Below, piece by piece: positions 1,673-14,430 of a stretch of 17,009 nucleotides of DNA. The notes beneath the pieces were generated by a model, which saw only the letters and a list, made by a program, of their open reading frames with translations, was not told the origin of the DNA and ran no database searches. Each line of letters opens with the position of its first letter. The stretch's first letter is position 1. Source of the stretch: Acinetobacter chinensis (GTDB lineage: Bacteria > Pseudomonadota > Gammaproteobacteria > Pseudomonadales > Moraxellaceae); the NCBI RefSeq assembly GCF_002165375.2, contig NZ_CP032127.1, forward strand, positions 1 to 17,009, given 5' to 3'. Both the position numbers and the translations under genes were made by a program.

Positions 1673-1700
1673 ATTTCGTATAAGGTGTATTATGTTAATT
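1673..1700. other. pdif site (XerC-XerD orientation): ATTTCGTATAA-GGTGTA-TTATGTTAATT
   Basis: This is a 28-bp 11-6-11 site matching the plasmid dif-like XerC/XerD consensus of Acinetobacter plasmids. It forms the left boundary of the msr(E)-mph(E) module. Confidence 0.85.
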
Positions 1701-2123: not shown

Positions 2124-3599
2124 ATGAGTTTAATTATTAAAGCGAGAAACATACGCTTGGATTATGCTGGGCGTGATGTTTTGGATATTGATGAATTGGA
2201 AATTCACTCTTATGACCGTATTGGTCTTGTGGGTGATAACGGAGCAGGAAAGAGTAGTTTACTCAAAGTACTTAATGGCGAAATTGTTTTAGCCGAAGCG
2301 ACATTACAGCGTTTTGGTGATTTTGCACATATCAGCCAACTGGGCGGAATCGAAATAGAAACGGTCGAAGACCGGGCAATGTTATCTCGCCTTGGTGTTT
2401 CCAATGTACAAAACGACACAATGAGTGGCGGAGAGGAAACTCGTGCAAAAATTGCTGCCGCATTTTCCCAACAAGTACATGGCATTCTAGCGGATGAACC
2501 AACCAGCCACCTTGATCTCAATGGAATAGATCTACTTATTGGTCAACTTAAAGCATTTGATGGAGCATTACTTGTTATCAGTCATGACCGATATTTTCTT
2601 GATATGGTTGTAGACAAGATATGGGAGTTAAAAGACGGTAAAATTACGGAATATTGGGGTGGTTACTCGGATTACTTGCGTCAAAAAGAAGAAGAGCGAC
2701 AACACCAAGCCGTAGAATATGAGCTGATGATGAAGGAACGGGAGCGATTAGAATCTGCTGTGCAAGAAAAACGCCAGCAAGCTAATCGATTAGACAATAA
2801 GAAAAAAGGAGAAAAATCCAAAAACTCTACCGAAAGTGCTGGACGACTTGGGCATGCAAAAATGACTGGCACCAAGCAAAGAAAACTGTATCAGGCAGCT
2901 AAGAGTATGGAAAAGCGTTTGGCTGCATTAGAAGATATTCAAGCACCAGAGCATTTGCGTTCTATTCGTTTTCGTCAAAGTTCAGCCCTAGAACTGCACA
3001 ATAAGTTCCCGATTACGGCAGATGGTCTGAGCTTAAAATTTGGTAGCCGTACTATCTTTGATGACGCTAACTTTATAATACCGCTTGGCGCTAAAGTCGC
3101 TATAACTGGATCGAATGGAACAGGGAAAACGTCCTTGTTAAAAATGATATCAGAACGTGCTGATGGATTAACCATATCTCCAAAAGCTGAAATTGGCTAC
3201 TTTACACAAACAGGATATAAATTTAACACGCATAAATCTGTGCTCTCCTTTATGCAGGAAGAGTGCGAGTACACAGTTGCGGAAATTCGTGCAGTATTGG
3301 CTTCAATGGGGATCGGAGCGAATGATATTCAAAAAAACTTATCCGACTTATCGGGAGGTGAAATCATCAAACTGCTTTTATCCAAAATGCTTTTAGGAAA
3401 ATATAATATTTTGCTTATGGATGAACCAGGAAACTATCTTGACCTAAAAAGTATTGCCGCATTAGAAACAATGATGAAGTCCTATGCAGGAACTATTATC
3501 TTCGTATCTCATGACAAGCAATTGGTCGATAATATTGCTGACATTATCTACGAGATCAAAGACCACAAAATCATCAAGACTTTTGAGAGAGATTGTTAA
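2124..3599 (+). CDS. msr(E): Msr(E) ABC-F ribosomal-protection protein (macrolide/streptogramin B resistance)
   Basis: The 491-aa protein has two ABC ATPase domains: Walker A 'GDNGAGKS' and 'GSNGTGKT', and signatures 'MSGGE' and 'LSGGE'. These are joined by a charged linker with no TM domain. I recognise the sequence as Msr(E). An AGGAG SD lies 9 nt upstream. Confidence 0.95.
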
Positions 3600-3654
3600 T
3601 GATAGCCAATCTAATCCGAACATTAATTATTGAACTCTTTAAAGGAAATTAAAA

Positions 3655-4539
3655 ATGACAATTCAAGATATTCAATCACTTGCTGAAGCACACGGCTTGT
3701 TGCTTACGGACAAAATGAATTTCAATGAAATGGGCATTGATTTTAAGGTCGTTTTTGCTCTTGATACAAAGGGGCAACAATGGTTGCTGCGTATTCCTCG
3801 TCGTGATGGCATGAGGGAACAAATCAAGAAAGAAAAACGCATTTTAGAATTGGTAAAAAAACATCTTTCTGTAGAGGTTCCTGATTGGAGAATTTCATCT
3901 ACAGAATTAGTGGCTTATCCCATACTTAAAGATAATCCTGTTTTAAATTTGGATGCTGAAACCTATGAAATAATTTGGAATATGGACAAAGATAGCCCGA
4001 AATACATAACATCTTTGGCAAAAACCTTATTTGAAATCCATAGTATTCCTGAAAAAGAAGTTCGGGAAAATGATTTGAAAATTATGAAACCTTCAGATTT
4101 AAGACCTGAAATAGCAAACAATTTGCAGTTAGTAAAATCTGAAATTGGTATAAGTGAGCAATTGGAAACCCGCTACAGAAAATGGTTGGATAATGATGTT
4201 CTATGGGCAGATTTCACCCAATTTATACATGGCGATTTATATGCTGGGCATGTACTAGCTTCAAAGGATGGAGCTGTTTCAGGCGTTATTGATTGGTCAA
4301 CAGCCCATATAGATGACCCAGCGATTGATTTTGCTGGGCATGTAACTTTGTTTGGAGAAGAAAGCCTCAAAACTCTAATCATCGAGTATGAAAAACTAGG
4401 GGGTAAAGTTTGGAATAAACTATATGAACAGACTTTAGAAAGAGCAGCGGCCTCTCCTTTGATGTATGGTTTATTTGCCTTAGAAACTCAAAATGAAAGC
4501 CTTATCGTTGGAGCAAAAGCTCAGTTGGGAGTTATATAA
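3655..4539 (+). CDS. mph(E): Mph(E) macrolide 2'-phosphotransferase
   Basis: The 294-aa protein has an APH-type kinase fold ('HGDLYAGHVL', 'GVIDWSTAHIDDPAIDF'). It lies immediately downstream of msr(E), as in the known msr(E)-mph(E) pair. Confidence 0.95.
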   Translation: MTIQDIQSLAEAHGLLLTDKMNFNEMGIDFKVVFALDTKGQQWLLRIPRRDGMREQIKKEKRILELVKKHLSVEVPDWRISSTELVAYPILKDNPVLNLDAETYEIIWNMDKDSPKYITSLAKTLFEIHSIPEKEVRENDLKIMKPSDLRPEIANNLQLVKSEIGISEQLETRYRKWLDNDVLWADFTQFIHGDLYAGHVLASKDGAVSGVIDWSTAHIDDPAIDFAGHVTLFGEESLKTLIIEYEKLGGKVWNKLYEQTLERAAASPLMYGLFALETQNESLIVGAKAQLGVI

Positions 4540-4618
4540 TTTAAAAATATGATTGCTGAGAACTGCCTTGTTTTGAAACTTGGTTGGCTTTAATTAGTTT
4601 TTAGTATTCTTTATAGAA

Positions 4619-4643
4619 AATGCCTCGATCAAGGGGCATTTCT
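4619..4643 (+). terminator. Possible weak terminator after mph(E)
   Basis: The hairpin AATGCCTC-GATCAA-GGGGCATT is followed by only a short T-containing tail (TTCT). Confidence 0.35.
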
Positions 4644-4650
4644 AACAATC

Positions 4651-4678
4651 ATTTAACATAAAATTTCTTATGTGAAGT
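4651..4678. other. pdif site (XerD-XerC orientation): ATTTAACATAA-AATTTC-TTATGTGAAGT
   Basis: An 11-6-11 site inverted relative to the site at 1673. It forms the right boundary of the msr(E)-mph(E) module. Confidence 0.85.
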
Positions 4679-4684
4679 AACCTG

Positions 4685-6176
4685 TGTAAGCCCCAAGTAG
4701 AAATGTCCGGTTTCTCCAAAGTAAAAATGTCCGCTTTTAGAATATGCACTTTTGCAATTTTCTTAGCGGACGGTTTGATATGTTGGTGTCTATGTCGGAT
4801 AAAGAACTTAAACGATTGTCGGTCTTGCAAGAAATCTGTGATCAACGCATAACCCAGTCCCAAGCTGCTCAGCTACTTCATATTTCAGAACGTCAGATCA
4901 GACGTTTATTGCAAAAATACAAAGCTCAAGGCCCAGCTGCATTAGCACATGCTGCACGTGGCCAAATCAGCAATTCCAGGCTTCCTGAAGAGCTCAGACT
5001 CAAGTGCCTCAATATTGTTTCGGATCAACTGCATGGTTTCGGACCCACTTTAGCGCATGAAAAGCTCACCACTGTTCATGGATTCGATATTTCAGTGGAA
5101 ACACTGCGTTCCTGGATGATTGCAGCCGATCTGTGGATTCCTCGCGCCAAGCGCCTGAAACGCCCGTATCAGCCTCGTTATAACCGAGATTGTTATGGTG
5201 AACTGATTCAAATCGATGGCTCACACCATGACTGGTTTGAAGGACGCGCTGCTAAGTGCTGTCTGCTGGTATTTATCGATGATGCCACAGGAAAATTACA
5301 GCATTTACGTTTCTGTGAGTCGGAATCAGCATTTGACTATATGATTTCAACACGTTTGTATGTTGAGCAGCATGGTAAGCCGTTGGCGTTTTACAGTGAT
5401 AAACATTCAGTCTTCAGGGTGAATCAAAGCAGCAAGAAAGACACCAAGATTACCCAGTTTGGACGCGTACTCAGTACCCTCAATATCGATATCATCTTCG
5501 CCAATTCACCACAAGCCAAAGGCCGTGTAGAACGGGCGAATAGAACGCTTCAGGACCGTCTGATTAAAGAAATGCGCCTGGAAGGCATCTATTCGATTGA
5601 GCAAGCGAATGCCTGGCTGCCCTGCTTTATCGAGCAATTTAATCGTAAATTTGCCAATATGGCCTTTAATCCCAAGGATCTACACCGGACTGTCACTGAA
5701 ACAGCCGAAGAATTAGATGATGTTTTTACCTGGCGTGAACCCCGCAGAGTCACGAACAGCCTGACGATTACTTATGATAAATGCGTATATTTACTGGAAA
5801 ATACCGAAGAAAATAAAAGGTTGATCGGCAAGTATCTTGAGTTTCTGGAATACCCGGATGGCACGGTAGCCATTGAACATCAAGGAAGAAAAATCAATTA
5901 CAGCATCTTCGATAAATTAAGTCAGCTCAACCAGCGAGAGGTTGTTGAGAATAAACGTTTAGGTGCTGTTCTCAATCATATTCAACAACAGCACGAAGAA
6001 TTAGAACAGCAAAACAAACGCAATCGTTCTCAAAAGATGCCGAGCAGACGTGCACAGAAAACAGTAATCAAAGAACGAAATCTGAATCCTGTGCTTGACT
6101 TGGAAGTGTCTGTATAGGACATTTCTATTTGGTTATTAGGTAGGACATTTCTACTTAGGAATAACAAACCTGAATG
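4685..6176 (+). mobile_element. Insertion sequence, IS1202-group (ISNCY-type), with 24-bp imperfect IRs and a 6-bp target duplication
   Basis: IRL is TGTAAGCCCCAAGTAGAAATGTCC (4685-4708). The reverse complement of IRR (6153-6176) is TGTTATTCCTAAGTAGAAATGTCC, giving 20/24 identity. A second subterminal (A/T)A(A/G)AAATGTCC copy sits at each end. A direct repeat AACCTG lies at 4679-4684 and 6177-6182. Confidence 0.8.
4792..6117 (+). CDS. DDE transposase of the IS1202-group element (N-terminal HTH plus integrase-core domain)
   Basis: The ORF is open from ATG 4744, with alternative ATGs at 4780 and 4792. I prefer 'MSDKELKRLSVLQEI...' by resemblance to related transposases. It has an HTH ('ITQSQAAQLLHISERQIRRLL') and an rve-like core ('IQIDGSHHDWF...FIDDATG...YSDKHSVF'). 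Confidence 0.8.
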   Translation: MSDKELKRLSVLQEICDQRITQSQAAQLLHISERQIRRLLQKYKAQGPAALAHAARGQISNSRLPEELRLKCLNIVSDQLHGFGPTLAHEKLTTVHGFDISVETLRSWMIAADLWIPRAKRLKRPYQPRYNRDCYGELIQIDGSHHDWFEGRAAKCCLLVFIDDATGKLQHLRFCESESAFDYMISTRLYVEQHGKPLAFYSDKHSVFRVNQSSKKDTKITQFGRVLSTLNIDIIFANSPQAKGRVERANRTLQDRLIKEMRLEGIYSIEQANAWLPCFIEQFNRKFANMAFNPKDLHRTVTETAEELDDVFTWREPRRVTNSLTITYDKCVYLLENTEENKRLIGKYLEFLEYPDGTVAIEHQGRKINYSIFDKLSQLNQREVVENKRLGAVLNHIQQQHEELEQQNKRNRSQKMPSRRAQKTVIKERNLNPVLDLEVSV

Positions 6177-6216: not shown

Positions 6217-6828
6217 TTAGATAACTTTAGCAACTCGATAGACAGTTGCAACTCCACAATTCACTGCTTTGGCAATTTCTTCCTTAGTCATATTGCCAAC
6301 TACTAGCAATTCTTTTATTCGTTTATGTTTAGCCTCATTTGCCTTCTTGCCTGTTGGTTTGTAACCCGAACGTGCCAGGCCCTGCTTAATACGTTCTATA
6401 CGTTTCTCATTGTCTAGGCGGGCCATTGTTGCCAGAAGATCAATCAACATATTGTTGATGAGTTCCAAGATTGAATGAGTAATGCTGTCACTGGTTTGAA
6501 TCATTTGGTAGGTAGTAGGAAGATCTGCTACGACTAAACGAAGTCCCTTCTCCTGGATCCTGCGCTTCAGCTCTTGAAAATCTCGTTGGGTTAGGCGTGA
6601 TAAGCGGTCAATACTTTCAACTAACAATGTGTCACCTTGATTTGCTTCTGACAGTAGCTTATTCAATTCAGGTCGGTCTAACTTCGTACCACTATAGTTT
6701 TCCACGTACACAATGGTTTCACCCAAATTCAAGTTTTGGTTTAGATCCTGAAGAATCTGCAAAGCCCTTTCTGCATCTTGATCTTTAGTTGAAGCTCGTA
6801 GATAAATACGTGTATTCATTTCTATCAT
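6217..6828 (-). CDS. Serine recombinase / resolvase-invertase family protein
   Basis: The N-terminus 'MNTRIYLRASTKDQ' carries the catalytic-Ser motif, followed by 'ESIDRLSR', and a C-terminal HTH ('EEIAKAVNCGVATVYRV'). The start may be ATG 6819 (MNTRIY...) rather than 6828. Confidence 0.85.
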   Translation of the reverse strand: MIEMNTRIYLRASTKDQDAERALQILQDLNQNLNLGETIVYVENYSGTKLDRPELNKLLSEANQGDTLLVESIDRLSRLTQRDFQELKRRIQEKGLRLVVADLPTTYQMIQTSDSITHSILELINNMLIDLLATMARLDNEKRIERIKQGLARSGYKPTGKKANEAKHKRIKELLVVGNMTKEEIAKAVNCGVATVYRVAKVI

Positions 6829-6975: not shown

Positions 6976-7003
6976 AATTCGTATAACGTGTATTATGTTA
7001 ATT
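6976..7003. other. pdif site (XerC-XerD orientation): AATTCGTATAA-CGTGTA-TTATGTTAATT
   Basis: An 11-6-11 site followed by the same TTTAGA flank as the site at 1673. It forms the left boundary of the tet(39) module. Confidence 0.85.
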
Positions 7004-7053: not shown

Positions 7054-8241
7054 TTATGGAACTCCAGAATATTTATTCAGGCGATACTTAAGCAATAAGG
7101 GTAGGGTGATTACATAAAGTATTGCAGCTAATGCCCATACCATTCCAGGAGCTGATGCCTGAGTCATAAAATAGAGGCTAGTAACTAATACAGGACCAAT
7201 TATAGCCCCCAGACTATTAAAACTGCTTAATAGCCCTTGTAATTCACCTTGTCTTTCATCACTAATACCTCTGGACATCATTGCTTGCAAAGCAGGAACG
7301 GCTACTCCACCAAGGGCAAACAATGGTAACAACGCAAAAGGCACCCATTCTTCAACAGCAATAGATAAAAGAAGTAAACCAATTGCATCGCAAGCTATTC
7401 CACATAACAACGTATTTTTCTCTCCAAACCTCTTTACCATAGGGGCGATAGCAAAAGCCTGTGCAATAGAATGGCATATTCCATAACTAGCAAGGGAAAC
7501 ACCTGCAATAAATATACTCCAGCCATAACGATCCTGCCCATAGATAACCCATAAAGTTGCGGGGACTTGTGAAACCAATGTGATAATTAAAAAGATACCA
7601 AGCAATGGAGCCATATTAGGTTGAGTGATCAAATAGGATAATTTCTTTAATATTGATTGCTCCTGAACCTTCTCAGTCATTTTATTGCTGTGTTTTGATT
7701 CTTTTAATAAGACTGCTGTCATTATTAAATTAATCCCATTCATAAAAGCAGCAGCAAAGAACGGTGCATGTAAGTTCCATTCACCCAAAACTCCACCTAT
7801 TACCGGACCCGCTATAAACCCAATACCAAAGACAGCTCCAAGGAGACCAAACCTTTTTGCACGCTCATGGGCTGGAGTAATATCTGAAACATAAGCTGTT
7901 GCAACAGCCATGTTGGCACCTGTAATTCCCGCAAAAATACGACCAATATATAGCCACAATAGAGAAGGAGCAGCAGCCATTAGGAGATAATCAGCCGTTG
8001 CACCAGCAATTGAAATAATTAATACAGGTCGACGTCCAAATCGGTCACTCAACGCTCCAAGGATAGGTGCAAAAATGAACTGCATCAGAGCATACACAGC
8101 TAATAAAGCACCATAGTGAACACCGCCTGCTTCAGCTCCAGCCAATGACCGTAATAATTCAGGCAAGATCGGCATAATTAAACCAATCCCAACAGCATCC
8201 AGAAATATAGTGATTAAAATCACGCTCAATGATTTCTTCAC
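7054..8241 (-). CDS. tetA(39): TetA(39) tetracycline efflux MFS transporter
   Basis: A 12-TM MFS protein with 'LDAVGIGLIMPILPELL' and 'LSDRFGRRPVL' motifs, divergent from a TetR gene across tetO operators. The GTG at 8241 gives a 395-aa product starting 'MKKSLSVILITIF'. The track's 8286 start would run through the operator region. Confidence 0.92.
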   Translation of the reverse strand: MKKSLSVILITIFLDAVGIGLIMPILPELLRSLAGAEAGGVHYGALLAVYALMQFIFAPILGALSDRFGRRPVLIISIAGATADYLLMAAAPSLLWLYIGRIFAGITGANMAVATAYVSDITPAHERAKRFGLLGAVFGIGFIAGPVIGGVLGEWNLHAPFFAAAFMNGINLIMTAVLLKESKHSNKMTEKVQEQSILKKLSYLITQPNMAPLLGIFLIITLVSQVPATLWVIYGQDRYGWSIFIAGVSLASYGICHSIAQAFAIAPMVKRFGEKNTLLCGIACDAIGLLLLSIAVEEWVPFALLPLFALGGVAVPALQAMMSRGISDERQGELQGLLSSFNSLGAIIGPVLVTSLYFMTQASAPGMVWALAAILYVITLPLLLKYRLNKYSGVP

Positions 8242-9004: not shown

Positions 9005-9020
9005 ATTTAACATAATAGAG
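9005..9020. other. Left part of an IS-disrupted pdif site: XerD arm ATTTAACATAA plus start of the central region
   Basis: The XerD arm is identical to those at 4651 and 14400. Joined to 10307-10318 it reconstitutes ATTTAACATAA-TAGAGC-TTATACGAAAC. Confidence 0.65.
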
Positions 9021-9077
9021 GTGGTCCCACTTGTTTGAACAACTAAAAGCGTATTTATAAGTGATATTCCGCTCTAG

Positions 9078-9956
9078 TTAAGCCACCTTGTTTTGTTGGG
9101 GTAGCTGATCATAGTAAAACTCATTTGGTGTCATTTTGTCTAGACTCGAATGAGGTCGTTTCAAATTATAAAACTCAAAATATGCACTTAATTGCTTTTT
9201 CGCATCTGTGACACTGCTATAAGCTTTGAGATACACCTCTTCATATTTAACGCTCCGCCATAATCGTTCAACCATCACATTATCTACCCATCGACCTTTA
9301 CCATCCATACTGATTTGAATGCCATTTGATTTCAATACATCAATAAATGCATCACTGGTAAACTGGCTGCCTTGGTCTGTATTAAATATTTCAGGTCGAC
9401 CATATTTTTCAATCGCTTCATTTAAAGCCGAAATACAAAAATCCACCTCCATACTAATCGATACCCTATGCGCAAGTACCTTGCGGCTATGCCAATCAAT
9501 CACAGCACATAAATAAACAAAGCCTTTTGCCATAGGGATATACGTTATATCCGTAGACCACACTTGATTACTGCGCTGAATAGCCAACCCTTTGAGCAGA
9601 TATGGATATTTACGGTGAGCTTGATTAGCCTGGCTTAAATTTGGTTTGCAATATAACGCCTGAATACCCATTTTCTTCATTAAAGTACGTGTATGACGTC
9701 GTCCTATATGATGTCCTTGACGATTCAACAAATCACGCATCATACGACTGCCTGCAAAAGGATATTGCATATGTAATTCATCAATACATCGCATCAGCTT
9801 CAGATCTGATGCACTCACAGGTTTTGGGCGATAGTAATAACAACCACGGGAGACTTTCAGCAGCTTAGCTTGCTTAGATACTGAAATCTGAAGTGAGTCG
9901 TCGATTAACTTTTGTGGTTGAAGCGGCCCAGTTTCTTCAACACACCTTCTAAAAAA
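9078..9956 (-). CDS. IS3-family transposase OrfB (DDE integrase core), expressed as an OrfAB fusion by -1 frameshift
   Basis: The -1 frame is open from 9956. The slippery heptamer T TTT TTA lies at 9950-9956 on the minus strand, inside the orfA/orfB overlap. An rve core is present ('WSTDITYI...', 'FNTDQGSQFTS', 'VERLWRSVKYE'). Confidence 0.8.
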   Translation of the reverse strand, partial: FFRRCVEETGPLQPQKLIDDSLQISVSKQAKLLKVSRGCYYYRPKPVSASDLKLMRCIDELHMQYPFAGSRMMRDLLNRQGHHIGRRHTRTLMKKMGIQALYCKPNLSQANQAHRKYPYLLKGLAIQRSNQVWSTDITYIPMAKGFVYLCAVIDWHSRKVLAHRVSISMEVDFCISALNEAIEKYGRPEIFNTDQGSQFTSDAFIDVLKSNGIQISMDGKGRWVDNVMVERLWRSVKYEEVYLKAYSSVTDAKKQLSAYFEFYNLKRPHSSLDKMTPNEFYYDQLPQQNKVA

Positions 9957-10210
9957 TCAATTTCTAATGCCTGCTCACCGATTTTTGCATGTAGTTTTTT
10001 TAGATCGATGGGTGGTTCTGTTGGAGCTTTTGATTGATCGAAAGCTTGCGAGGAAGCTGAGATCAATTGATTTTTCCAGTCAATAATTTGGTTTTGATGA
10101 ACATCAAACTCAGCACTCAATTCAGCAAGTGTTTTTTCTGCTTTAATCGCAGCAAGTGCTACCTTAGCTTTAAAATCATTTGAATGATTTCTTCTTGGTC
10201 TACGTGCCAT
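9905..10210 (-). CDS. IS3-family transposase OrfA (HTH)
   Basis: 'MARRPRRNHSNDFKAKVALAAIKAEKTLAELSAEFDVHQNQIIDWKNQL' is a typical IS3 OrfA with a leucine-zipper-like tail. The track ORF starts 4 codons earlier, at 10222. Confidence 0.85.
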   Translation of the reverse strand: MARRPRRNHSNDFKAKVALAAIKAEKTLAELSAEFDVHQNQIIDWKNQLISASSQAFDQSKAPTEPPIDLKKLHAKIGEQALEIDFLEGVLKKLGRFNHKS

Positions 10211-10301
10211 AAAATACTCCATATATTGATGTTTATAACATCATTTGAGGAGCAGAATATCACTTATAGGAGTTGTTCAAATTTACGGATCCATCTCTTA
10301 A

Positions 10302-10318
10302 TAGAGCTTATACGAAAC
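10302..10318. other. Right part of the IS-disrupted pdif site: central region TAGAGC plus XerC arm TTATACGAAAC
   Basis: See the feature at 9005-9020. The XerC arm (reverse complement GTTTCGTATAA) closely matches the other XerC arms. Confidence 0.65.
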
Positions 10319-10386
10319 GTGTTTTTAATATTACTTTAAGATCAGTATCTTATCGTTATTCATACCCTCTGGAACGTTCTCGTTCA

Positions 10387-10416
10387 ACCGACTTGGAAAC
10401 AAGTCGGTTTCTTTTT
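10387..10416 (+). terminator. Rho-independent terminator
   Basis: The stem is ACCGACTT / AAGTCGGT with a GGAAAC loop, followed by TTCTTTTT. Confidence 0.6.
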
Positions 10417-10721
10417 AAGCAAAACTGTAACTTTTAGCCAATAAAATTGATCAAAAAACATTCGTTTTTACATTTTTTCCTGATTTCTCAAGGGTCACAG
10501 TTCAGAAATAATCCCCAATTTCTGCGGACAACTCTTGGGATAAAAAGTGACCAAACTTGTACGTTTTGGCGCACATTCATTCAGGTGCTTTGCGTCTATG
10601 CCATTCTTCATCAATTTCTTATCATGGGGACATAGAGAGCAGGATGCTCCAGATAAGAATAATAAGATCAGATACAAGGAATGTGAGGTACGACAGGAGT
10701 TATACCTAAGCATCAAATACG

Positions 10722-10751
10722 AAAAACCCCGACAGGATGTCGGGGTTTTTT
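10722..10751. terminator. Bidirectional rho-independent terminator; ends the minus-strand RexAB-like operon
   Basis: A GC-rich stem CCCCGACA / TGTCGGGG, with A5 upstream and T6 downstream, so a T-run follows the hairpin on both strands. Confidence 0.8.
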
Positions 10752-10763
10752 ATTGTCCGAATG

Positions 10764-10791
10764 TTCTCGAAAAATCAGTATTATGCTCATT
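10764..10791. other. Degenerate pdif-like site (XerC-XerD orientation): TTCTCGAAAAA-TCAGTA-TTATGCTCATT
   Basis: The XerD arm matches TTATGTTAATT at 9/11 and is followed by the same TTTAGAAAA flank as the sites at 1673 and 6976. The XerC arm keeps the TCG..A.AA core (7/11). Its orientation fits the alternating pattern of the other sites. Confidence 0.4.
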
Positions 10792-10814
10792 TTAGAAAAA
10801 TTAAATGTTCTAAG

Positions 10815-11282
10815 CTATGCCACCTTATTGCTATTAACCAATACGTTAATACCAACAAATATGGTTAAGACTGATTGCAAGAAACTTGCAATAAATAATC
10901 CAACGAAAAACTTCAATAAAATTGACAAATTAATAGCTTCTGTTTTAGCAAAACCAAGTATTGATAGAAAGCCGGCCAAAGATAGGTAGATAAGACACGA
11001 TACCCATAAACAAGCAAAAGCTACTCCGAACTTTCTACGGTAGTTATTAACTCCTGGCTTAGATAGTCCGTATACCAACGTTACAATCATTGCTACGATT
11101 CCAAACATTGCTATTGAGTAACTCAATAGCGCAGTTGCAAGATCTTTGGAATTTTTATAGAAGCTAAAAGTAAAAAAGTTATTGAGATAGTGGAAATAGG
11201 CACACTCTATCAGAAGCCCAATTAGCGGGGTTGTAAAGATAAGCAATACGATCATCCATCTGTTCTGGGACTTCTTGTTCAT
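10815..11282 (-). CDS. RexB-like small inner-membrane protein with four predicted TM helices
   Basis: About 155 aa from ATG 11282, with an AAGG 9 nt upstream; the track uses TTG 11291. Four hydrophobic segments are present: WMIVLLIFTTPLIGLLIECAYF, LATALLSYSIAMFGIVAMIVTLVYGL, FGVAFACLWVSCLIYLSLAGFLSILGF and LSILLKFFVGLFIASFLQSVLTIFVGI. It lies directly downstream of the RexA-like gene. Confidence 0.6.
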   Translation of the reverse strand: MNKKSQNRWMIVLLIFTTPLIGLLIECAYFHYLNNFFTFSFYKNSKDLATALLSYSIAMFGIVAMIVTLVYGLSKPGVNNYRRKFGVAFACLWVSCLIYLSLAGFLSILGFAKTEAINLSILLKFFVGLFIASFLQSVLTIFVGINVLVNSNKVA

Positions 11283-12135
11283 ACTCTTCAACCTTATCTT
11301 TTAGCTCTACATTATTCTCAATTTTTTCCTTTATCTCATCGAAAACCTTACTTTCTTCAGTGCTTTTAATCTCGTCATATAGTGCACCAGCACTATGGAT
11401 ATAAAAATCTTTTACATTATCTTCAAGATTTTGTTTTCCTCGTAAAATAATGCCTTTGATACCATCATCCTCCATAGATACCAATGTTTTTTTAATAGTG
11501 TCAGTTAAAGATTTCCTTGATGCCGGCTTAATAATGATTTCAAAACTTTCAATAACTTCTAGATCATTAGGATTAGTCGATCCTAAGAAAAATTCTTTAA
11601 ATGATTCCCCTAGACTACTATCTTTACGAACTAAAAACCGTGTAGTTCCAATAAATGGTAGTGTCATAGCCTGATTCTTTGTAATTTCAGTTTTCAAAGG
11701 ATGAACAACAAAACTAATATCCTGAATTCTGAGCATAACAAGTAAGTTATTTATATACATTTGGAATGCTGTAAACTTTGGAGAAAGTACTCTTGATGCA
11801 AATCCAAATACTCTTAGTGTTGGATGAAAATACACATACGATGCAAACCCTAAACTCTCATCTTTACTTAATAAAGACTGAATCTCATAAGCCTTAATTT
11901 CATCGTCTTTCTTCTCAATTCTTTTAATAATTTCTCTATCTTTAGTCTGTACAAATAAATAAAAGCTATTTACGACAGGAAGTAAATATAGGTTTTCGCC
12001 AGAATGTCGGTTTTGCTTAGCGAATGGTAAAGCTTCATTCGAAGTTGATGATTTAATAAAATCATTGATCTCCATTCTAAATTGGCTTTTATCTTCAAAT
12101 TTTTCAAAACAATAAGTAAAGTAGTTAAGTTTCAA
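11179..12135 (-). CDS. RexA-like protein (phage-exclusion / abortive-infection sensor component)
   Basis: A 318-aa soluble protein with a TTG start and a strong SD GAGGGG 8 nt upstream. The blocks 'YLFVQTKDREIIKRI', 'DESLGFASYVYF...FGFASRVLSP', 'PFIGTTRF' and 'EIIIKPASRK' line up with my recollection of lambda RexA ('FLFTKTNDKSLVQKI', 'DESLGFPSFLFV...IGFARTVFGP', 'HFIGRTT', 'DIVIKPKFKR'). Confidence 0.6.
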   Translation of the reverse strand: MKLNYFTYCFEKFEDKSQFRMEINDFIKSSTSNEALPFAKQNRHSGENLYLLPVVNSFYLFVQTKDREIIKRIEKKDDEIKAYEIQSLLSKDESLGFASYVYFHPTLRVFGFASRVLSPKFTAFQMYINNLLVMLRIQDISFVVHPLKTEITKNQAMTLPFIGTTRFLVRKDSSLGESFKEFFLGSTNPNDLEVIESFEIIIKPASRKSLTDTIKKTLVSMEDDGIKGIILRGKQNLEDNVKDFYIHSAGALYDEIKSTEESKVFDEIKEKIENNVELKDKVEEYEQEVPEQMDDRIAYLYNPANWASDRVCLFPLSQ

Positions 12136-12357
12136 GTGTTAATCCCCTCATTAATCAAAACATAATATCTTAAATATCAACTAAAAGTGCTCACCTTTAA
12201 GGGCGTGTAAAGAACCTAGTTCTTATATTATTTCCACATATCAATCTTAGTCTGGTACAGCTCCACAAATGTTAGCTGTCTCACGACAAATTTTTTCATA
12301 AGTTTTACTTTCAAAAAAAACTTGCAATCATATGCATTCATTATCAATATATCATTT

Positions 12358-12369
12358 TGTCCTAGGACA
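12358..12369. promoter_or_regulatory. Perfect 12-bp palindrome TGTCCTAGGACA 20 nt upstream of the wHTH gene (candidate operator)
   Basis: The sequence is self-complementary and is followed by a further GGACA copy (12372-12376). It lies between a TTGCAA -35-like hexamer (12322-12327) and the ATG at 12389. Confidence 0.35.
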
Positions 12370-12388
12370 GCGGACACTGTGAATTAAA

Positions 12389-13015
12389 ATGCTTAAGTCT
12401 CAAGATATTCTTGTTTTAGTAAAGTTGCTATCTATTCAAAATGGATTACGTACATCGTCAAACTTCAGTAGGACCTATAGCAACGATTACTCGGACTTCT
12501 ATTTAAAAAGATCTCTTAGCCATCTGTTGTCAGTTAGAGGACTGGCCGAATCTATTGTTATGGGTAAAAGTGAAGTATCAGAATGCATTAAACGATTAGT
12601 AAAAGTTGGCCTACTAGTTATTCACAATCAAAACTTTTCTCAAAGATTGGACTTAGCTAGTCTGGATTGGGATATTAATAAAAGGGGATTTTTCCATTTA
12701 GTCATTTATAGTTTTCAATATTTTTTCCCAGCAGAACTAAAATCAATGGATTTTGGGCTTCCTACAGCATTTTCTAAAGAAGGTCTAAATTCTCTCTTAG
12801 CATATAGCTCTCCAGTACCTTATATTTGGCCAATACAAACCTATAAATCTATTTCAGGCATAGCAGTTGAACCTATGCATAAATCAATACCATATGCAGC
12901 AATTAATGATGAATATCTCTATGAAATATTTGCAATAATTGATATTTTTAGAATGGGTTCTCCTAGAGAGAAACATATCGCAGAAAAACTATTTTTAGAC
13001 ATTTTAGGCTTGTAA
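12389..13015 (+). CDS. Winged-helix DNA-binding protein, AbiEi-like putative antitoxin/regulator
   Basis: A 208-aa protein with an HTH ('LSVRGLAESIVMGKSEVSECIKRLVKVGLL') in the N-terminal half and a separate C-terminal domain. It is the first gene of a tightly packed three-gene operon. Confidence 0.55.
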   Translation: MLKSQDILVLVKLLSIQNGLRTSSNFSRTYSNDYSDFYLKRSLSHLLSVRGLAESIVMGKSEVSECIKRLVKVGLLVIHNQNFSQRLDLASLDWDINKRGFFHLVIYSFQYFFPAELKSMDFGLPTAFSKEGLNSLLAYSSPVPYIWPIQTYKSISGIAVEPMHKSIPYAAINDEYLYEIFAIIDIFRMGSPREKHIAEKLFLDILGL

Positions 13016-13020
13016 AACGA

Positions 13021-13719
13021 ATGAACTCACCATTAATTATAATGCTAGAAAAAGTAGCAAATGCCCTAACTCAAGATCTTAGGCAGGAAATGGTATTCAT
13101 TGGTGGATGTACTACTAGTCTACTGTTAGATCCTGAAAATCATTCATTAGCTACAAGATACACATATGATGTGGATCTAATTGTAGATATAACAACTCAT
13201 GCAGAATGGTATTCACTAGAAGAGAAGATTCGGAAATTAGGTTTCGTGAATGATCAAAATGATAATATTTTATGTCGCTATAGATTAGGGAATGACTTGA
13301 TTGTTGACTTTATGCCTACAGATTCAAATATCTTAGGTTTTAGTAACTATTGGTATGAACAAGCTATTACTCACAAGATTACGTATTGTCTACCAAATAA
13401 AACTGAAATAAACATACTCGAATCCCCATATTTTTTGGCTACAAAATTTGAAGCTTACAAAGGTCGAGGAAATAATGACCCCTTAATGAGTAAAGATATA
13501 GAAGATATTTTAACTGTATGTATGGGTCGAAGCTCTCTAGTTGAAGAAATATACTCTAGCCCTCAAGAGTTAAGAGATTATCTCTCTAATGTACTATTAG
13601 AGTTACACCATCATTCAGAATTTGAAATTGTCTTAGATGATCAATGTCGATATGGTTCAAAAGAAAGAGTTAGGCAAGTTATAAACGCAATAATCAAACA
13701 ATGGAATAAAGCTTTCTAA
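13021..13719 (+). CDS. Nucleotidyltransferase-fold protein, AbiEii/MenT-like putative toxin
   Basis: A 232-aa protein with a Pol-beta-type NTase signature: 'FIGGCTTSLL' (G-G/S loop) followed by 'YDVDLIVD' (DxD). A helical C-terminal part contains 'PYFLATKFEAYKGRG...SKDIEDIL'. It starts 5 nt after the wHTH gene's stop. Confidence 0.6.
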   Translation: MNSPLIIMLEKVANALTQDLRQEMVFIGGCTTSLLLDPENHSLATRYTYDVDLIVDITTHAEWYSLEEKIRKLGFVNDQNDNILCRYRLGNDLIVDFMPTDSNILGFSNYWYEQAITHKITYCLPNKTEINILESPYFLATKFEAYKGRGNNDPLMSKDIEDILTVCMGRSSLVEEIYSSPQELRDYLSNVLLELHHHSEFEIVLDDQCRYGSKERVRQVINAIIKQWNKAF

Positions 13720-14393
13720 TGATTTTTTTCCATTTTACTCATAATCAATGCCTTCCTAACAAACATGGAATAGATGGAACCGGTGAACTTAAATCTAATC
13801 CGCTTTTAGAACTTTGCTATGTAATTGATGGACATAGTAAACATCCCAATAGCGCTATTCTGGTATCTAATTTCCATAAATTTATTCTGGAAAAAAAAGA
13901 AGAATTTACAGATTTAATAAATGAAGATGAGGTAATTAGAGAATTCCTTGAAAGAGTAATTAAAGAATTTCACAAATCTCAATATAGACAGCTCATCCCA
14001 GCAGCCATGAGTATCTGCCTAATCATTTTTAGTCCCCAAAAGGTCTACAGTGTGCATCTAGGAGACTGCCGTTTAGGTCTAATTTTTGAAAAAAAGTTAG
14101 AGTGGTTAACTTATCCACATAATTTAACAATGTGCCGGATTATAGATATTGAAACTTTAGACTTAGAAGAAACATTAAGATCTTCAGCTGATAATCATAT
14201 TGTAACTAATTCTTTAAATACTAAACGCCTAAAAAAAATTGAAATAAATGTATTTAATAGAAAAAAAGGAACATATCTTTTAGCAACAGATGGTTTATGG
14301 AAATTAGAGGTTCATAAAATTCTATCAACTGTAAAAAATAAAGAAAACTATAATGAAATTGATGATTTAGCTTTCATTATAGCTAATGACTAG
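13719..14393 (+). CDS. Minimal PP2C-family (PPM) Ser/Thr phosphatase-like protein
   Basis: A 224-aa protein with the four acidic PPM motifs in the canonical order: 'VIDGHS', 'HLGDCRLG', 'LLATDGLW' and 'IDDLAFII'. Its ATG overlaps the NTase stop (TAATG). Confidence 0.65.
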   Translation: MIFFHFTHNQCLPNKHGIDGTGELKSNPLLELCYVIDGHSKHPNSAILVSNFHKFILEKKEEFTDLINEDEVIREFLERVIKEFHKSQYRQLIPAAMSICLIIFSPQKVYSVHLGDCRLGLIFEKKLEWLTYPHNLTMCRIIDIETLDLEETLRSSADNHIVTNSLNTKRLKKIEINVFNRKKGTYLLATDGLWKLEVHKILSTVKNKENYNEIDDLAFIIAND

Positions 14394-14399
14394 TTCTTC

Positions 14400-14430
14400 A
14401 TTTAACATAAAAAAATCTCTTATGCGAAGC
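14400..14430. other. pdif-like site (XerD-XerC orientation) with an atypical 9-bp central region: ATTTAACATAA-AAAAATCTC-TTATGCGAAGC
   Basis: The XerD arm is identical to those at 4651 and 9005. The XerC arm (reverse complement GCTTCGCATAA) resembles the other XerC arms. The arms are 9 bp apart instead of 6 bp because of an A7 run. Confidence 0.45.

What the first reader, a model, noticed from the sequence alone, without database searches (positions are those of the whole stretch)
10815..12135. RexA/RexB-like phage-exclusion pair on a plasmid, with a 104-nt out-of-frame overlap between the two genes
Seen in sequence:
- A 318-aa soluble protein is followed on the same strand by a roughly 155-aa protein with four clear hydrophobic helices.
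- A bidirectional GC-rich terminator (10722-10751) ends the pair.
- Several blocks of the large protein ('DESLGFASYVYF..FGFASRVLSP', 'YLFVQTKDREIIKRI', 'EIIIKPASRK') resemble lambda RexA as I remember it.
- The small partner matches the size and four-TM topology of RexB.

Unusual detail:
- The RexA-like frame runs 104 nt past the ATG (11282) of the membrane-protein frame.
- The first TM helix of the partner is therefore encoded inside the overlap. The corresponding RexA-like tail ('DDRIAYLYNPANWASDRVCLFPLSQ') extends past where lambda RexA, as I recall it, would end.
- This could be a genuine long overlap, a read-through extension after loss of the ancestral stop, or a frameshifted fusion.

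RexAB mechanism is still debated, and plasmid-borne homologues in dif modules would be a new context.
Basis: partly seen in the sequence, partly recalled or inferred. Interest (0 to 1): 0.7.

Follow-up and report, generated by a model that had tools for sequence, protein, structure and literature searches.

The report
RexAB phage-exclusion pair with conserved overlap
This Acinetobacter plasmid carries true relatives of phage lambda's RexA/RexB anti-phage pair, and their 104-base out-of-frame overlap is an inherited, selected feature of most RexAB systems that makes gene finders truncate or miss rexB.

Summary
The 318-aa ORF (11179-12135, minus strand) is a RexA: Pfam 2e-54, PADLOC 7e-49, lambda RexA structure 8TWQ by sequence and by fold. 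The 155-aa four-helix membrane ORF (10815-11282) is a RexB: PADLOC 7e-07, profile against lambda RexB 96%.

The 104-nt overlap is genuine, not an error or a fusion. In more than 20 distinct loci, with RexA identity down to about 28% and GC from 32 to 65%, rexB opens in the +1 frame. Its start codon lies 77-158 nt before the rexA stop, behind a Shine-Dalgarno motif built from RexA codons.

Both frames are constrained. RexA's invariant Trp306 (TGG) shares bases with RexB's invariant Gly22. The RexB wobble base before that Gly is T in all 25 loci. Synonymous-site diversity is the lowest of each gene inside the overlap. Only the last nine RexA codons are a lineage-specific run-on.

Lambda-type phages have a 15-24 nt gap instead, so the textbook layout is the exception. 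Gene callers truncate or skip rexB.

The pair shares a pdif-bounded block with the candidate defence system PDC-M21. The abortive-infection mechanism is inferred from homology only.

The parts
11179..12135 (-). rexA, 318 aa, with a TTG start. It has the RexA two-domain fold plus a C-terminal extension relative to lambda RexA (279 aa).
   Evidence: Pfam RexA 2.3e-54 over residues 1-240. PADLOC RexA 6.9e-49. 8TWQ 8.6e-14. hhalign 99.8% against lambda RexA residues 1-256. AF2 pLDDT 83 with Foldseek top hit 8TWQ.
12144..12149 (-). Shine-Dalgarno-like GAGGGG, 8 nt upstream of the rexA TTG start.
   Evidence: Read from the sequence. Relatives have G-rich motifs at the same place, with ATG, TTG or GTG starts.
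10815..11282 (-). rexB, 155 aa from the ATG at 11282. It is a four-helix inner-membrane protein with a basic N-terminus (MNKKSQNRW).
   Evidence: PADLOC RexB 6.7e-07, and 18 of 18 relatives match with a best E of 8.8e-24. hhalign against lambda RexB 96.2%, E 2.5e-9, covering residues 12-141 of 144. BLASTP is colinear from lambda residue 2. The ATG at this position is conserved in all 9 close relatives.
11179..11282 (-). 104-nt dual-coding overlap. It encodes RexA residues 285-318 in frame 0 and RexB residues 1-34 in frame +1, including all of TM1.
   Evidence: The same +1 arrangement occurs in more than 20 distinct loci, with the start 77-158 nt before the rexA stop. Third-position diversity is the lowest of each gene here: A frame 0.223 against a minimum of 0.289 in 260 windows, B frame 0.278 against a minimum of 0.437 in 96 windows.
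11291..11295 (-). Shine-Dalgarno-like AAGGT for rexB, formed by RexA codons Lys281-Val282, about 9 nt before the ATG.
   Evidence: AGG or GGAG motifs lie roughly 5-16 nt upstream of the rexB start in nearly all loci. I read the Lys281 codon off the upstream sequences printed. It is AAG in all 18 loci that have Lys there, against 31% AAG among all RexA Lys codons.
11217..11220 (-). Shared bases of RexA Trp306 (TGG, 11220-11218) and RexB Gly22 (GGG, 11219-11217). Each residue is invariant in its own family alignment.
   Evidence: W306 is invariant in A1 and G22 is invariant in A2. The pattern xxT-GGN occurs in 25 of 25 loci. The T is a synonymous site in RexB but is required for Trp in RexA.
11182..11208 (-). 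Lineage-specific run-on of RexA, codons 310-318 (RVCLFPLSQ).
   Evidence: Close relatives stop at codon 310 (L004, L015) or 315 (L010), although all 9 have an identical 1321-nt length. Position 1+2 diversity is 0.35. AF2 pLDDT is below 50 for residues 313-318.
10722..10750 (.). GC-rich hairpin with flanking A and T runs. It is the likely terminator of the rexAB transcript.
   Evidence: 13 pairs, 6 of them G-C, with a T-run on the minus strand. The A-run on the other side makes it symmetrical.
10291..10318 (-). Left boundary of the mobile block. It is the XerC half plus spacer of a pdif site that was split by an IS3-family insertion. The XerD half is at 9005-9032.
   Evidence: Half-site scans and the sequence. 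Homology with plasmid pAJ14 starts at 10308, and there it abuts an intact pdif site.
14400..14430 (-). Right boundary of the block. It is a pdif-like site with a 9-nt instead of a 6-nt spacer.
   Evidence: Homology with pAJ14 ends at 14430, at that plasmid's intact pdif site.
12389..14393 (+). Divergent three-gene neighbour, PADLOC candidate defence system PDC-M21 (A, B, and C with a PP2C-like phosphatase). It travels with rexAB in the same block but is not part of RexAB.
   Evidence: PADLOC 5e-39, 5.7e-77 and 1.6e-23. Pfam PP2C 1e-05. It is co-linear with rexAB in L001, L003, L023, L025 and L026 and absent next to rexAB in L002.

Best explanation
This is a RexAB-family two-gene phage-exclusion module carried on a multiresistance Acinetobacter Rep_3 plasmid. 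rexA encodes a cytoplasmic protein with the fold of lambda RexA, which is a dimeric, non-specific DNA-binding sensor. rexB encodes a four-helix inner-membrane protein homologous to lambda RexB.

By homology, RexA is expected to respond to an infecting phage and activate RexB. RexB then damages or depolarises the membrane and aborts the infection. This step is inferred, not shown.

The two genes are truly dual-coding over 104 nt. rexB is translated from its own ATG (11282) and its own Shine-Dalgarno motif. Both lie inside the codons of RexA's last long helix. RexA's frame runs on across the DNA that encodes RexB's basic N-terminus and first membrane helix. This yields a structured C-terminal tail with an invariant tryptophan.

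This layout is ancestral to, and conserved across, most of the RexA family. Lambda-type phages, which have a 15-24 nt gap, are the exception. RexB's first helix is shared with lambda, but the RexA tail is not. The tail therefore most likely arose by overprinting after the ancestral rexA stop and spacer were lost (inference).

The likely functional consequence is a hard-wired RexA:RexB ratio. The rexB start lies about 100 nt upstream of the rexA stop, so termination-reinitiation coupling is not possible. Ribosomes translating rexA must pass over the rexB initiation site. RexB output is therefore tied to, and probably held below, RexA output (inference). Rex systems are known to be stoichiometry-sensitive.
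For: **Family membership**

**Overlap conserved in the +1 frame**
- The close Acinetobacter relatives have no indels in 1321 nt.
- Loci with RexA at 28-43% identity and GC of 32-65% have the rexB start 77-110 nt before the rexA stop.
- Two further clades with different tails have overlaps of 119 and 143-158 nt.

**Independent initiation of rexB**
- A Shine-Dalgarno-like motif sits before the start in nearly all loci. Lys281 uses AAG in 18 of 18 loci against a 31% background (read output).
- The rexB frame is closed 0-42 nt upstream of its first ATG.

**Selection on both frames**
- The Trp/Gly shared bases, with T at the RexB wobble position in 25 of 25 loci.
- The lowest synonymous-site diversity of each gene falls in the overlap.
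- An orphan RexA clade with no rexB still keeps the Trp tail.
- The AF2 tail has pLDDT 82-94 up to about residue 310.

**Lambda-type layout**
- A gap rather than an overlap in lambda and in Klebsiella, Hafnia and Salmonella phages.

**Size of the long-tail form**
- Most of the best 150 of 296 50%-identity clusters are 305-320 aa and match through the tail.

**Stoichiometry sensitivity**
- Reported for lambda and for P. putida RexAB (PMC12894663).
Against: - There are no expression, proteomic or phage data for this locus. The rexB start, the function of the RexA tail and any defence phenotype are all inferred.
- Overall nucleotide diversity in the overlap (0.229) is no lower than in the flanks (0.226 and 0.263). 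Each protein is simply more tolerant there: positions 1+2 of the RexA tail evolve about 1.6 times faster than the RexA body.
- Some clades have unrelated, low-complexity RexA tails without Trp. The tail sequence is therefore not universally required.
- The window RexB match to PADLOC RexB is modest (7e-07), and BLASTP against lambda RexB is weak (E 0.013).
- No significant RNA structure surrounds the rexB start (z = -0.30). A structure-opening coupling mechanism is therefore not supported.
- The biological role of lambda Rex is itself debated (PMC11077077).
Confidence: 0.85

Rival explanations
1. rexB really starts at a downstream codon, as the databases annotate it (146, 119, 110, 97 or 91 aa). 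The overlap would then be shorter (77 nt) or absent, and the upstream in-frame codons would not be translated.
For: Public gene calls never use the 155-aa start. The ATG at 11255 (77-nt overlap) is conserved in 8 of 9 close relatives.
Against: - The ATG at 11282 is conserved in all 9 close relatives and has the Shine-Dalgarno motif. The ATG at 11255 has none and is Ile in L015.
- Starts beyond the rexA stop would delete TM1. That helix is conserved with an invariant Gly22 and aligns to lambda RexB from residue 2 or 12.
- Even the 146-aa call overlaps by 77 nt.
- As I recall, Prodigal caps same-strand overlaps at 60 nt. That would explain the truncated calls without any biology.
Confidence: 0.08
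2. Only rexB is under selection in the overlap. The RexA tail beyond about residue 285 is a functionless run-on that ends wherever a stop codon happens to fall.
For: - The position of the rexA stop drifts between codon 310, 315 and 319 among close relatives.
- The RexB wobble position is still the most variable phase in the overlap (0.33).
- Other clades have unrelated, low-complexity tails.
- The last 6 residues are disordered in the model.
Against: - Trp306 is invariant in the A1 alignment, and the T it requires is kept at a RexB synonymous site in 25 of 25 loci.
- An aromatic or Leu residue six positions before the Trp is conserved in nearly all loci.
- An orphan RexA without rexB keeps the tail.
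- The tail is modelled with pLDDT 82-94.
- The RexA frame stays open 25-50 codons past the rexB start in every lineage, although P is about 0.1-0.2 per lineage.
Confidence: 0.1
3. The overlap serves programmed +1 ribosomal frameshifting, or reflects a frameshift mutation, and the product is a RexA-RexB fusion protein.
For: A 431-aa RexA-RexB fusion exists in an ocean metagenome contig (P0070, L050). It was created by a single frameshift inside the overlap. A fusion is therefore topologically possible.
Against: - In the window and in every other analysed locus, both frames have their own start and stop.
- The rexB frame is closed just upstream of its ATG.
- I noticed no shared slippery motif when reading the junction sequences. 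This was not searched systematically.
- The fusion is a single low-coverage contig and may be a sequencing error or a pseudogene.
Confidence: 0.03
4. The pair is RexAB by descent, but on the plasmid it serves plasmid maintenance or host physiology rather than phage defence. Examples would be RexB-type inhibition of ClpXP or ClpAP proteolysis of antitoxins, or post-segregational killing.
For: Lambda RexB has separate anti-proteolysis activities, and RexA has a RexB-independent role in the lysis-lysogeny switch (PMC11077077). Small Acinetobacter plasmids are rich in toxin-antitoxin modules.
Against: - The plasmid has no cI/cro switch for RexA to modulate.
- The pair sits next to another candidate defence system, PDC-M21, in one mobile block. 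That is typical defence-island behaviour.
- In other loci the same clade sits beside restriction-modification genes and in prophage immunity regions.
- P. putida RexAB protects against phages (PMC12894663).
Confidence: 0.12

Closest known systems
Bacteriophage lambda RexA/RexB exclusion system (PDB 8TWQ for RexA)
   Same: Both have a homologous RexA, by sequence and by predicted fold, and a homologous four-helix RexB. The gene order rexA then rexB on one strand is the same, and both are followed by a terminator. The inferred logic is also the same: a sensor plus a membrane effector, sensitive to stoichiometry.
   Different: - Lambda RexA is 279 aa and lacks the Trp-containing tail of about 26-35 aa.
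- Lambda has a 15-nt gap between the genes, not a 104-nt overlap.
- The lambda genes sit downstream of cI in a prophage immunity region. Here the pair is on a plasmid, with no repressor and a divergent PDC-M21 operon.
- Identity is only about 25% for RexA and about 20% for RexB.
Pseudomonas putida prophage P1 RexABpp (PP_5643/PP_5644; PMC12894663)
   Same: It is a RexA-like DNA-binding protein longer than lambda's (37.5 kDa with tag) plus a four-helix RexB. It has been shown experimentally to defend against phages and to be toxic through RexB when RexA is overproduced.
   Different: It is prophage-borne. The sequence relationship to this locus was not tested here, and I could not check whether its genes overlap.
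Actinobacteriophage Rex-like pairs (Sbash gp30/31, CarolAnn gp44/43, Butters)
   Same: They are two-gene exclusion systems with a soluble RexA-like protein and a membrane protein.
   Different: They are much more distant, with RexA-like proteins of 337-372 aa. They did not appear among my sequence hits. No overlap is described in the papers I read.
Long same-strand overlapping (overprinted) genes in phages and bacteria
   Same: Two proteins are read from one DNA stretch in different frames. Synonymous variation is depressed in both frames, and one of the two segments is evolutionarily younger.
   Different: Overlaps above about 60 nt in bacterial annotation are mostly errors (my recollection of the literature). 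This one is supported by conservation across a whole defence-gene family.
Acinetobacter pdif (dif) modules
   Same: In related plasmids the rexB-rexA/PDC-M21 block is bracketed by XerC/XerD pdif sites (L003, L023, L001). The window also carries the classic msr(E)-mph(E) and tet(39) dif modules. rexA has already been drawn in such plasmids (PMC13141974).
   Different: In this window, one bounding site is split by an IS3-family element. One has a 9-nt spacer. The site next to rexB is degenerate (7 mismatches). The module is probably immobilised.

Membership tests
RexAB phage-exclusion system | RexA protein: Pfam PF15969 / PADLOC RexA profile match | tested here: met
   Pfam 2.3e-54 with a cut-off of 25 bits. 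PADLOC 6.9e-49 over profile positions 1-262 of 267.
RexAB phage-exclusion system | RexA two-domain fold as in the lambda RexA crystal structure | tested here: met
   AF2 model with pLDDT 83. Foldseek top hits are 8TWQ chains B and A at E 9.7e-15, probability 1.00. TM is only 0.44-0.49, probably because of a different inter-domain angle. The next hits are kinetochore CENP-N/CHL4-type proteins, as reported for RexA (PMC11077077).
RexAB phage-exclusion system | RexB: small inner-membrane protein with four transmembrane helices, homologous to lambda RexB | tested here: met
   Four hydropathy peaks. PADLOC RexB 6.7e-07, and 18 of 18 relatives match. hhalign against lambda RexB 96.2%, E 2.5e-9 over 130 columns. 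No dedicated topology predictor was available.
RexAB phage-exclusion system | rexA immediately followed by rexB on the same strand, as one unit | tested here: met
   No terminator-like site was found between them, and one follows rexB.
RexAB phage-exclusion system | Location beside a CI-type repressor in a prophage immunity region (typical, not strictly defining) | tested here: not met
   The window is a Rep_3 plasmid, and the neighbours are PDC-M21 and an IS element. Distant members of the same clade do sit beside CI-like repressors (L012).
RexAB phage-exclusion system | Exclusion of superinfecting phage; RexB-dependent membrane depolarisation; RexA dimerisation and DNA binding | not testable with these tools
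   Needs plaque assays, membrane-potential assays and EMSA.
Genuine dual-coding (overprinted) gene pair | Both frames stay open across diverged homologues more often than chance allows | tested here: met
   More than 20 distinct loci. P is about 0.10-0.19 per lineage from measured alternate-frame stop densities.
Genuine dual-coding (overprinted) gene pair | Purifying selection detectable in both frames | tested here: met
   Third-position diversity in the overlap is below every same-size window of the non-overlapping part of each gene. T is kept at a RexB synonymous site in 25 of 25 loci to preserve RexA Trp. No formal dN/dS model for overlapping genes was run.
Genuine dual-coding (overprinted) gene pair | Both products translated from the overlap | not testable with these tools
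   Only indirect evidence is available: a conserved ATG and Shine-Dalgarno motif.
Acinetobacter pdif module | Gene set bracketed by XerC/XerD (pdif) sites in inverted orientation | tested here: inconclusive
   Met in relatives: L003 has sites at 2987-3014 (+) and 7939-7966 (-), and L023 likewise. In the window the flanking sites are IS-split (9005-9032 / 10291-10318), degenerate (10764-10791) or carry a 9-nt spacer (14400-14430).
PDC-M21 (PADLOC candidate defence system; neighbour) | Three adjacent genes matching the PDC-M21A, B and C profiles | tested here: met
   5e-39, 5.7e-77 and 1.6e-23.

The most novel reading that the evidence does not exclude
The long out-of-frame rexA/rexB overlap is the ancestral and dominant architecture of RexAB systems, and it is functional. 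The rexB initiation site embedded in rexA hard-wires the RexA:RexB ratio on which the suicide switch depends. The overprinted RexA tail, with its invariant Trp sharing bases with the invariant Gly of RexB helix 1, is the part of RexA that engages RexB or the membrane. If so, many reported 'orphan' RexA genes, and an undercount of Rex systems in defence censuses, would be artefacts of gene callers that cannot call overlaps this long.
Probability: 0.35. Interest if true: 0.65.

Novelty: new variant of a known kind. Interest (0 to 1): 0.5.

Why it matters
- **Study of RexAB.** RexAB is the oldest known abortive-infection system, and how RexA talks to RexB is still unresolved. A recent paper counts only five RexAB-like systems as described (PMC12894663). 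This analysis shows that the studied lambda layout is atypical. Most of the family encodes RexA's C-terminal tail and RexB's first membrane helix on the same DNA.
- **Concrete targets.** The results point to specific things to test: Trp306, Gly22, the internal Shine-Dalgarno motif and the fixed expression ratio.
- **Annotation.** Public gene calls for rexB in this clade are truncated or missing. Tools that need both proteins may then miss the system or report RexA as an orphan.
- **Plasmid biology.** The locus shows two anti-phage systems riding in one XerCD-recombination block, next to macrolide and tetracycline resistance modules, on a small Acinetobacter plasmid.

Tried and rejected
- **Genome-contig scan.** The scan with the RexA alignment returned only one locus because the back-translated pattern was too narrow.
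- **NCBIfam.** It has no model for either protein.
- **RNA structure.** I looked for structure that could sequester the rexB start, which would support translational coupling by unfolding. The MFE is -20.2 kcal/mol and z is -0.30, so it is not significant.
- **Internal promoter.** I looked for a promoter for rexB like lambda pLit. One weak sigma-70-like match lies at 11339-11311, but the region has fewer matches than shuffled sequence. It is not evidence.
- **RexB structure prediction.** I did not repeat it with the single sequence.
- **pdif scan.** A strict scan with a 6-nt spacer missed the sites that bound the rexAB block. A relaxed scan and comparison with related plasmids were needed.
- **Sequencing or frameshift error.** Rejected for the window, because the same architecture occurs in independent assemblies.
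- **Fusion.** Rejected, because each frame has its own start and stop.
Full report
**1. The observation**

The window holds, on the minus strand, a 318-aa ORF (11179-12135, TTG start) and a 158-aa ORF in another frame (10815-11291 from TTG, 155 aa from the ATG at 11282). The stretch from the ATG at 11282 to the end of the rexA stop at 11179 is exactly 104 nt.

The small protein has four hydrophobic segments, and the first is encoded entirely within the overlap. A 13-pair GC-rich hairpin at 10722-10750, flanked by A and T runs, follows the pair.

**2. Identity of the two proteins**

The large protein is a RexA.
- Pfam PF15969 scores 2.3e-54 and PADLOC RexA scores 6.9e-49.
- The only solved relative is lambda RexA, 8TWQ, at 8.6e-14. 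BLASTP gives 25% identity.
- A 25-sequence profile aligns to lambda RexA residues 1-256 at 99.8% probability.
- An AlphaFold2 model (mean pLDDT 83) finds 8TWQ as its only significant PDB match (E 9.7e-15). Kinetochore CENP-N/CHL4-type proteins follow. The RexA structure paper reports the same distant relatives (PMC11077077).

The small protein is a RexB.
- PADLOC RexB scores 7e-07 for the window protein.
- All 18 relatives I extracted match the same model, with a best E of 8.8e-24.
- Their profile aligns to lambda RexB residues 12-141 of 144 at 96.2% probability, E 2.5e-9.
- BLASTP is weak (E 0.013) but colinear from lambda residue 2.

**3. Is the overlap real?**

I collected related loci from plasmids, from exact-protein look-ups, and from viral and metagenome scans.

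- **Close relatives.** Nine Acinetobacter relatives, with 70-97% RexA identity, all measure exactly 1321 nt from the rexA start to the rexB stop, with no indel.
- **Distant relatives.** In loci whose RexA is only 28-43% identical, and whose GC content runs from 32 to 65%, an ORF of 154-164 codons opens in the +1 frame.
  - Its first ATG lies 77-110 nt before the rexA stop. In the 65%-GC locus the start is a GTG.
  - It encodes four hydrophobic helices.
- **Other tail types.** Two further clades with different RexA tails have overlaps of 119 nt and 143-158 nt.
- **Chance.** The alternate-frame stop density measured in the non-overlapping parts is 0.062-0.073 per codon. A 30-codon open stretch therefore has P of about 0.10-0.14 in any one lineage. 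Its recurrence in all these lineages is not chance.
- **Exceptions.**
  - One orphan rexA clade has no rexB anywhere in the DNA held (L011, L030).
  - In L036 the rexB-frame ORF stops after 60 codons, well inside the held DNA, so it looks disrupted.
  - One locus is a partial or broken copy (L045).

**4. Where rexB starts**

- The ATG at 11282 is conserved at the equivalent position in all nine close relatives. The second ATG at 11255 is Ile in L015.
- About 9 nt upstream lies AAGGT, formed by RexA codons Lys281-Val282. An AGG or GGAG-type motif lies roughly 5-16 nt upstream of the first start in nearly all loci.
- I read the Lys281 codon off the upstream sequences. It is AAG in all 18 loci that have Lys there, whereas AAG makes up only 31% of RexA Lys codons. 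That is a nucleotide-level signature of a ribosome-binding site.
- The rexB frame is closed 0-42 nt upstream of its first ATG. This argues for independent initiation and against a shift from the rexA frame.
- The encoded N-terminus is basic (MNKKSQNRW here; SRKR in many relatives) and precedes helix 1, as expected for an N-in membrane protein.
- Database gene calls never use this start. They give 146, 119, 110, 97 or 91 aa, or no gene at all, sometimes with a spurious opposite-strand ORF instead. As I recall, Prodigal forbids same-strand overlaps above 60 nt, which would explain this.

**5. Are both frames selected?**

Phase-specific diversity among the nine close relatives, by rexA codon position:

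| Region | rexA pos. 1 (= rexB pos. 3) | rexA pos. 2 (= rexB pos. 1) | rexA pos. 3 (= rexB pos. 2) |
|---|---|---|---|
| rexA only | 0.17 | 0.09 | 0.42 |
| Overlap | 0.33 | 0.16 | 0.20 |
| rexB only | 0.50 | 0.22 | 0.07 |

- The rexA-only region shows the usual third-position excess in the rexA frame, and the rexB-only region shows it in the rexB frame. The overlap is intermediate.
- RexA third-position diversity in the overlap (0.223) is below all 260 equal-size windows of the rest of rexA (minimum 0.289). RexB third-position diversity (0.278) is below all 96 windows of the rest of rexB (minimum 0.437).
- At the protein level, RexA Trp306 is invariant across the 25-sequence alignment and RexB Gly22 across the 18-sequence alignment. 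The two share bases (TGG over GGN).
- The base before the Gly codon is a synonymous site for RexB, in Ile, Pro or Leu codons. It is T in 25 of 25 loci, as Trp requires.
- The orphan RexA clade keeps the Trp tail without any rexB.
- AlphaFold models residues 261-310 with pLDDT 82-94.

Against a strong constraint:
- Total diversity in the overlap is no lower than in the flanks.
- RexA tail positions 1+2 evolve about 1.6 times faster than the RexA body.
- Some clades have unrelated, low-complexity tails.

Only the last nine codons of the window's RexA (RVCLFPLSQ) look like a neutral run-on.
- Relatives stop at codon 310 or 315.
- Position 1+2 diversity there is 0.35.
- pLDDT is below 50.

**6. 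Comparison with lambda, and origin**

Lambda, Klebsiella phage ST101-KPC2phi6.1 and Hafnia phage yong1 have a 279-aa RexA and a 15-nt gap. Salmonella phage MS2 LVA has a 281-aa RexA and a 24-nt gap.

The lambda-type RexA ends about 10 residues after the helix that, in the window clade, contains the rexB ribosome-binding site. RexB helix 1 is homologous in both types, but the RexA tail exists only in the overlapping type. I infer that the tail arose by overprinting, when the rexA stop and spacer were lost. The direction of change is not proven.

A search of 1.84 billion cluster representatives found 296 RexA clusters, 227 of them at E of 1e-30 or better. Most of the best 150 are 305-320 aa and match through the tail. 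By sequence diversity, the overlapping form is the main form of the family.

**7. How it most likely works**

- **Shown:** homology of both proteins to RexA and RexB, and the gene layout.
- **Inferred from lambda and P. putida work (PMC11077077, PMC12894663):** RexA senses infection, and RexB damages or depolarises the membrane, aborting the infection.
- **The overlap.**
  - The rexB start is about 100 nt upstream of the rexA stop. Termination-reinitiation coupling is therefore excluded.
  - rexB must be initiated de novo at a site that rexA-translating ribosomes traverse.
  - I found no significant RNA structure there (z = -0.30).
  - The most economical reading is that the arrangement fixes the RexA:RexB ratio. 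Both studied systems are reported to be sensitive to that ratio.
  - A direct role of the Trp tail in contacting RexB or the membrane is possible but untested.

**8. Context**

The window is essentially a small Acinetobacter Rep_3 plasmid carrying the msr(E)-mph(E) and tet(39) dif modules.

- The block 10308-14430 is co-linear with plasmid pAJ14, where intact pdif sites bracket it.
- In L003 and L023, a pdif site lies directly after rexB and an inverted one after the third neighbouring gene.
- In the window, the left site is split by an IS3-family element (halves at 9005-9032 and 10291-10318). The site next to rexB is degenerate (10764-10791). The right site has a 9-nt spacer (14400-14430).
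- The divergent three genes at 12389-14393 match the PADLOC candidate system PDC-M21 A, B and C (5e-39, 5.7e-77, 1.6e-23). The block is therefore a two-system defence module.
- rexAB also occurs without PDC-M21 (L002), beside restriction-modification genes on an A. pittii chromosome, and beside CI-like repressors in phage-like contigs.

**9. Novelty**

- RexAB is known, and existing PADLOC models recognise both proteins.
- rexA has already been drawn in Acinetobacter dif-module plasmids (PMC13141974).
- Three full-text searches and the papers I read describe no overlap between rexA and rexB.
- The RexA structure paper discusses 'orphan' RexA genes. In two loci where callers reported no rexB (L012, L014), I found intact overlapping rexB ORFs. 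Some orphans may therefore be annotation artefacts, although at least one clade is a true orphan.

I rate this as a new variant of a known kind. It is of moderate interest for Rex biology, for defence-system annotation, and as a well-supported case of a long bacterial gene overlap.

Noticed in passing
window 12389-14393 (+): Three genes divergent from rexA match the PADLOC candidate defence system PDC-M21 (A 5e-39, B 5.7e-77, C 1.6e-23). Protein C has a weak PP2C phosphatase match, and RefSeq calls protein A 'MarR family'. They travel with rexAB in several plasmids.
   Followed up: partly
window 9005-9032 and 10291-10318, with the IS between them (about 9033-10290; ORFs 9078-9818 and 9905-10222): An IS3-family element appears to have inserted into the spacer of a pdif site. 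It separates a perfect XerD half (TTATGTTAAAT) from a near-perfect XerC half (GTTTCGTATAA), and TAGAG-like duplications sit at both junctions.
   Followed up: partly
window 14400-14430: A pdif-like site has a 9-nt rather than a 6-nt spacer (GCTTCGCATAA-GAGATTTTT-TTATGTTAAAT). Relatives have GAGATT. The 3-nt insertion probably inactivates the site.
   Followed up: no
window 10764-10791: A degenerate relic (7 mismatches) sits where relatives L003 and L023 have a pdif site directly downstream of rexB.
   Followed up: partly
L050 507-1802 (protein P0070, Global Ocean Sampling contig): A 431-aa RexA-RexB fusion ORF is created by a single frameshift inside the overlap. The normal RexB N-terminus and the normal RexA Trp-tail are still readable in the other two frames. 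It could be a real fusion, a pseudogene or a sequencing error.
   Followed up: partly
L011 3001-3951 and L030: A RexA clade (about 34-36% identical) has no rexB anywhere in the DNA held. It sits in a P2-like context (Ogr/Delta, Toprim) and still keeps the Trp-containing tail.
   Followed up: partly
L003 about 3452-4764 (A. pittii p2_100004): ISAba26 (IS256 family) is inserted inside the rexA/rexB overlap, at window position about 11215-11229 near the Trp306/Gly22 codons. It disrupts both genes at once.
   Followed up: no
L051 1448-1605 and L053 930-1048: Other RexA clades have tails that lack the conserved Trp; one tail is basic and low-complexity. They overlap rexB by 143-158 nt and 119 nt respectively. 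What is universal is the embedded rexB start, not the tail sequence.
   Followed up: partly
window 10600-10803: A segment of about 200 bp downstream of rexB, including the terminator hairpin, matches more than 150 Acinetobacter plasmids at 81-96% identity with nothing annotated. It may be a common module-boundary or terminator cassette.
   Followed up: no
window 12133-12135 and relatives: rexA starts with TTG or GTG in most Acinetobacter-clade loci, behind a strong G-rich Shine-Dalgarno motif. rexB starts with ATG. More distant clades use ATG for rexA. This may bear on the RexA:RexB ratio.
   Followed up: no
window 1673-1700, 4651-4678, 6976-7003: Canonical pdif sites bound the msr(E)-mph(E) module and start the tet(39)-tetR module. 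A resolvase gene (6217-6828) and a 457-aa ORF at 4744-6117 (not analysed here) lie between them.
   Followed up: partly
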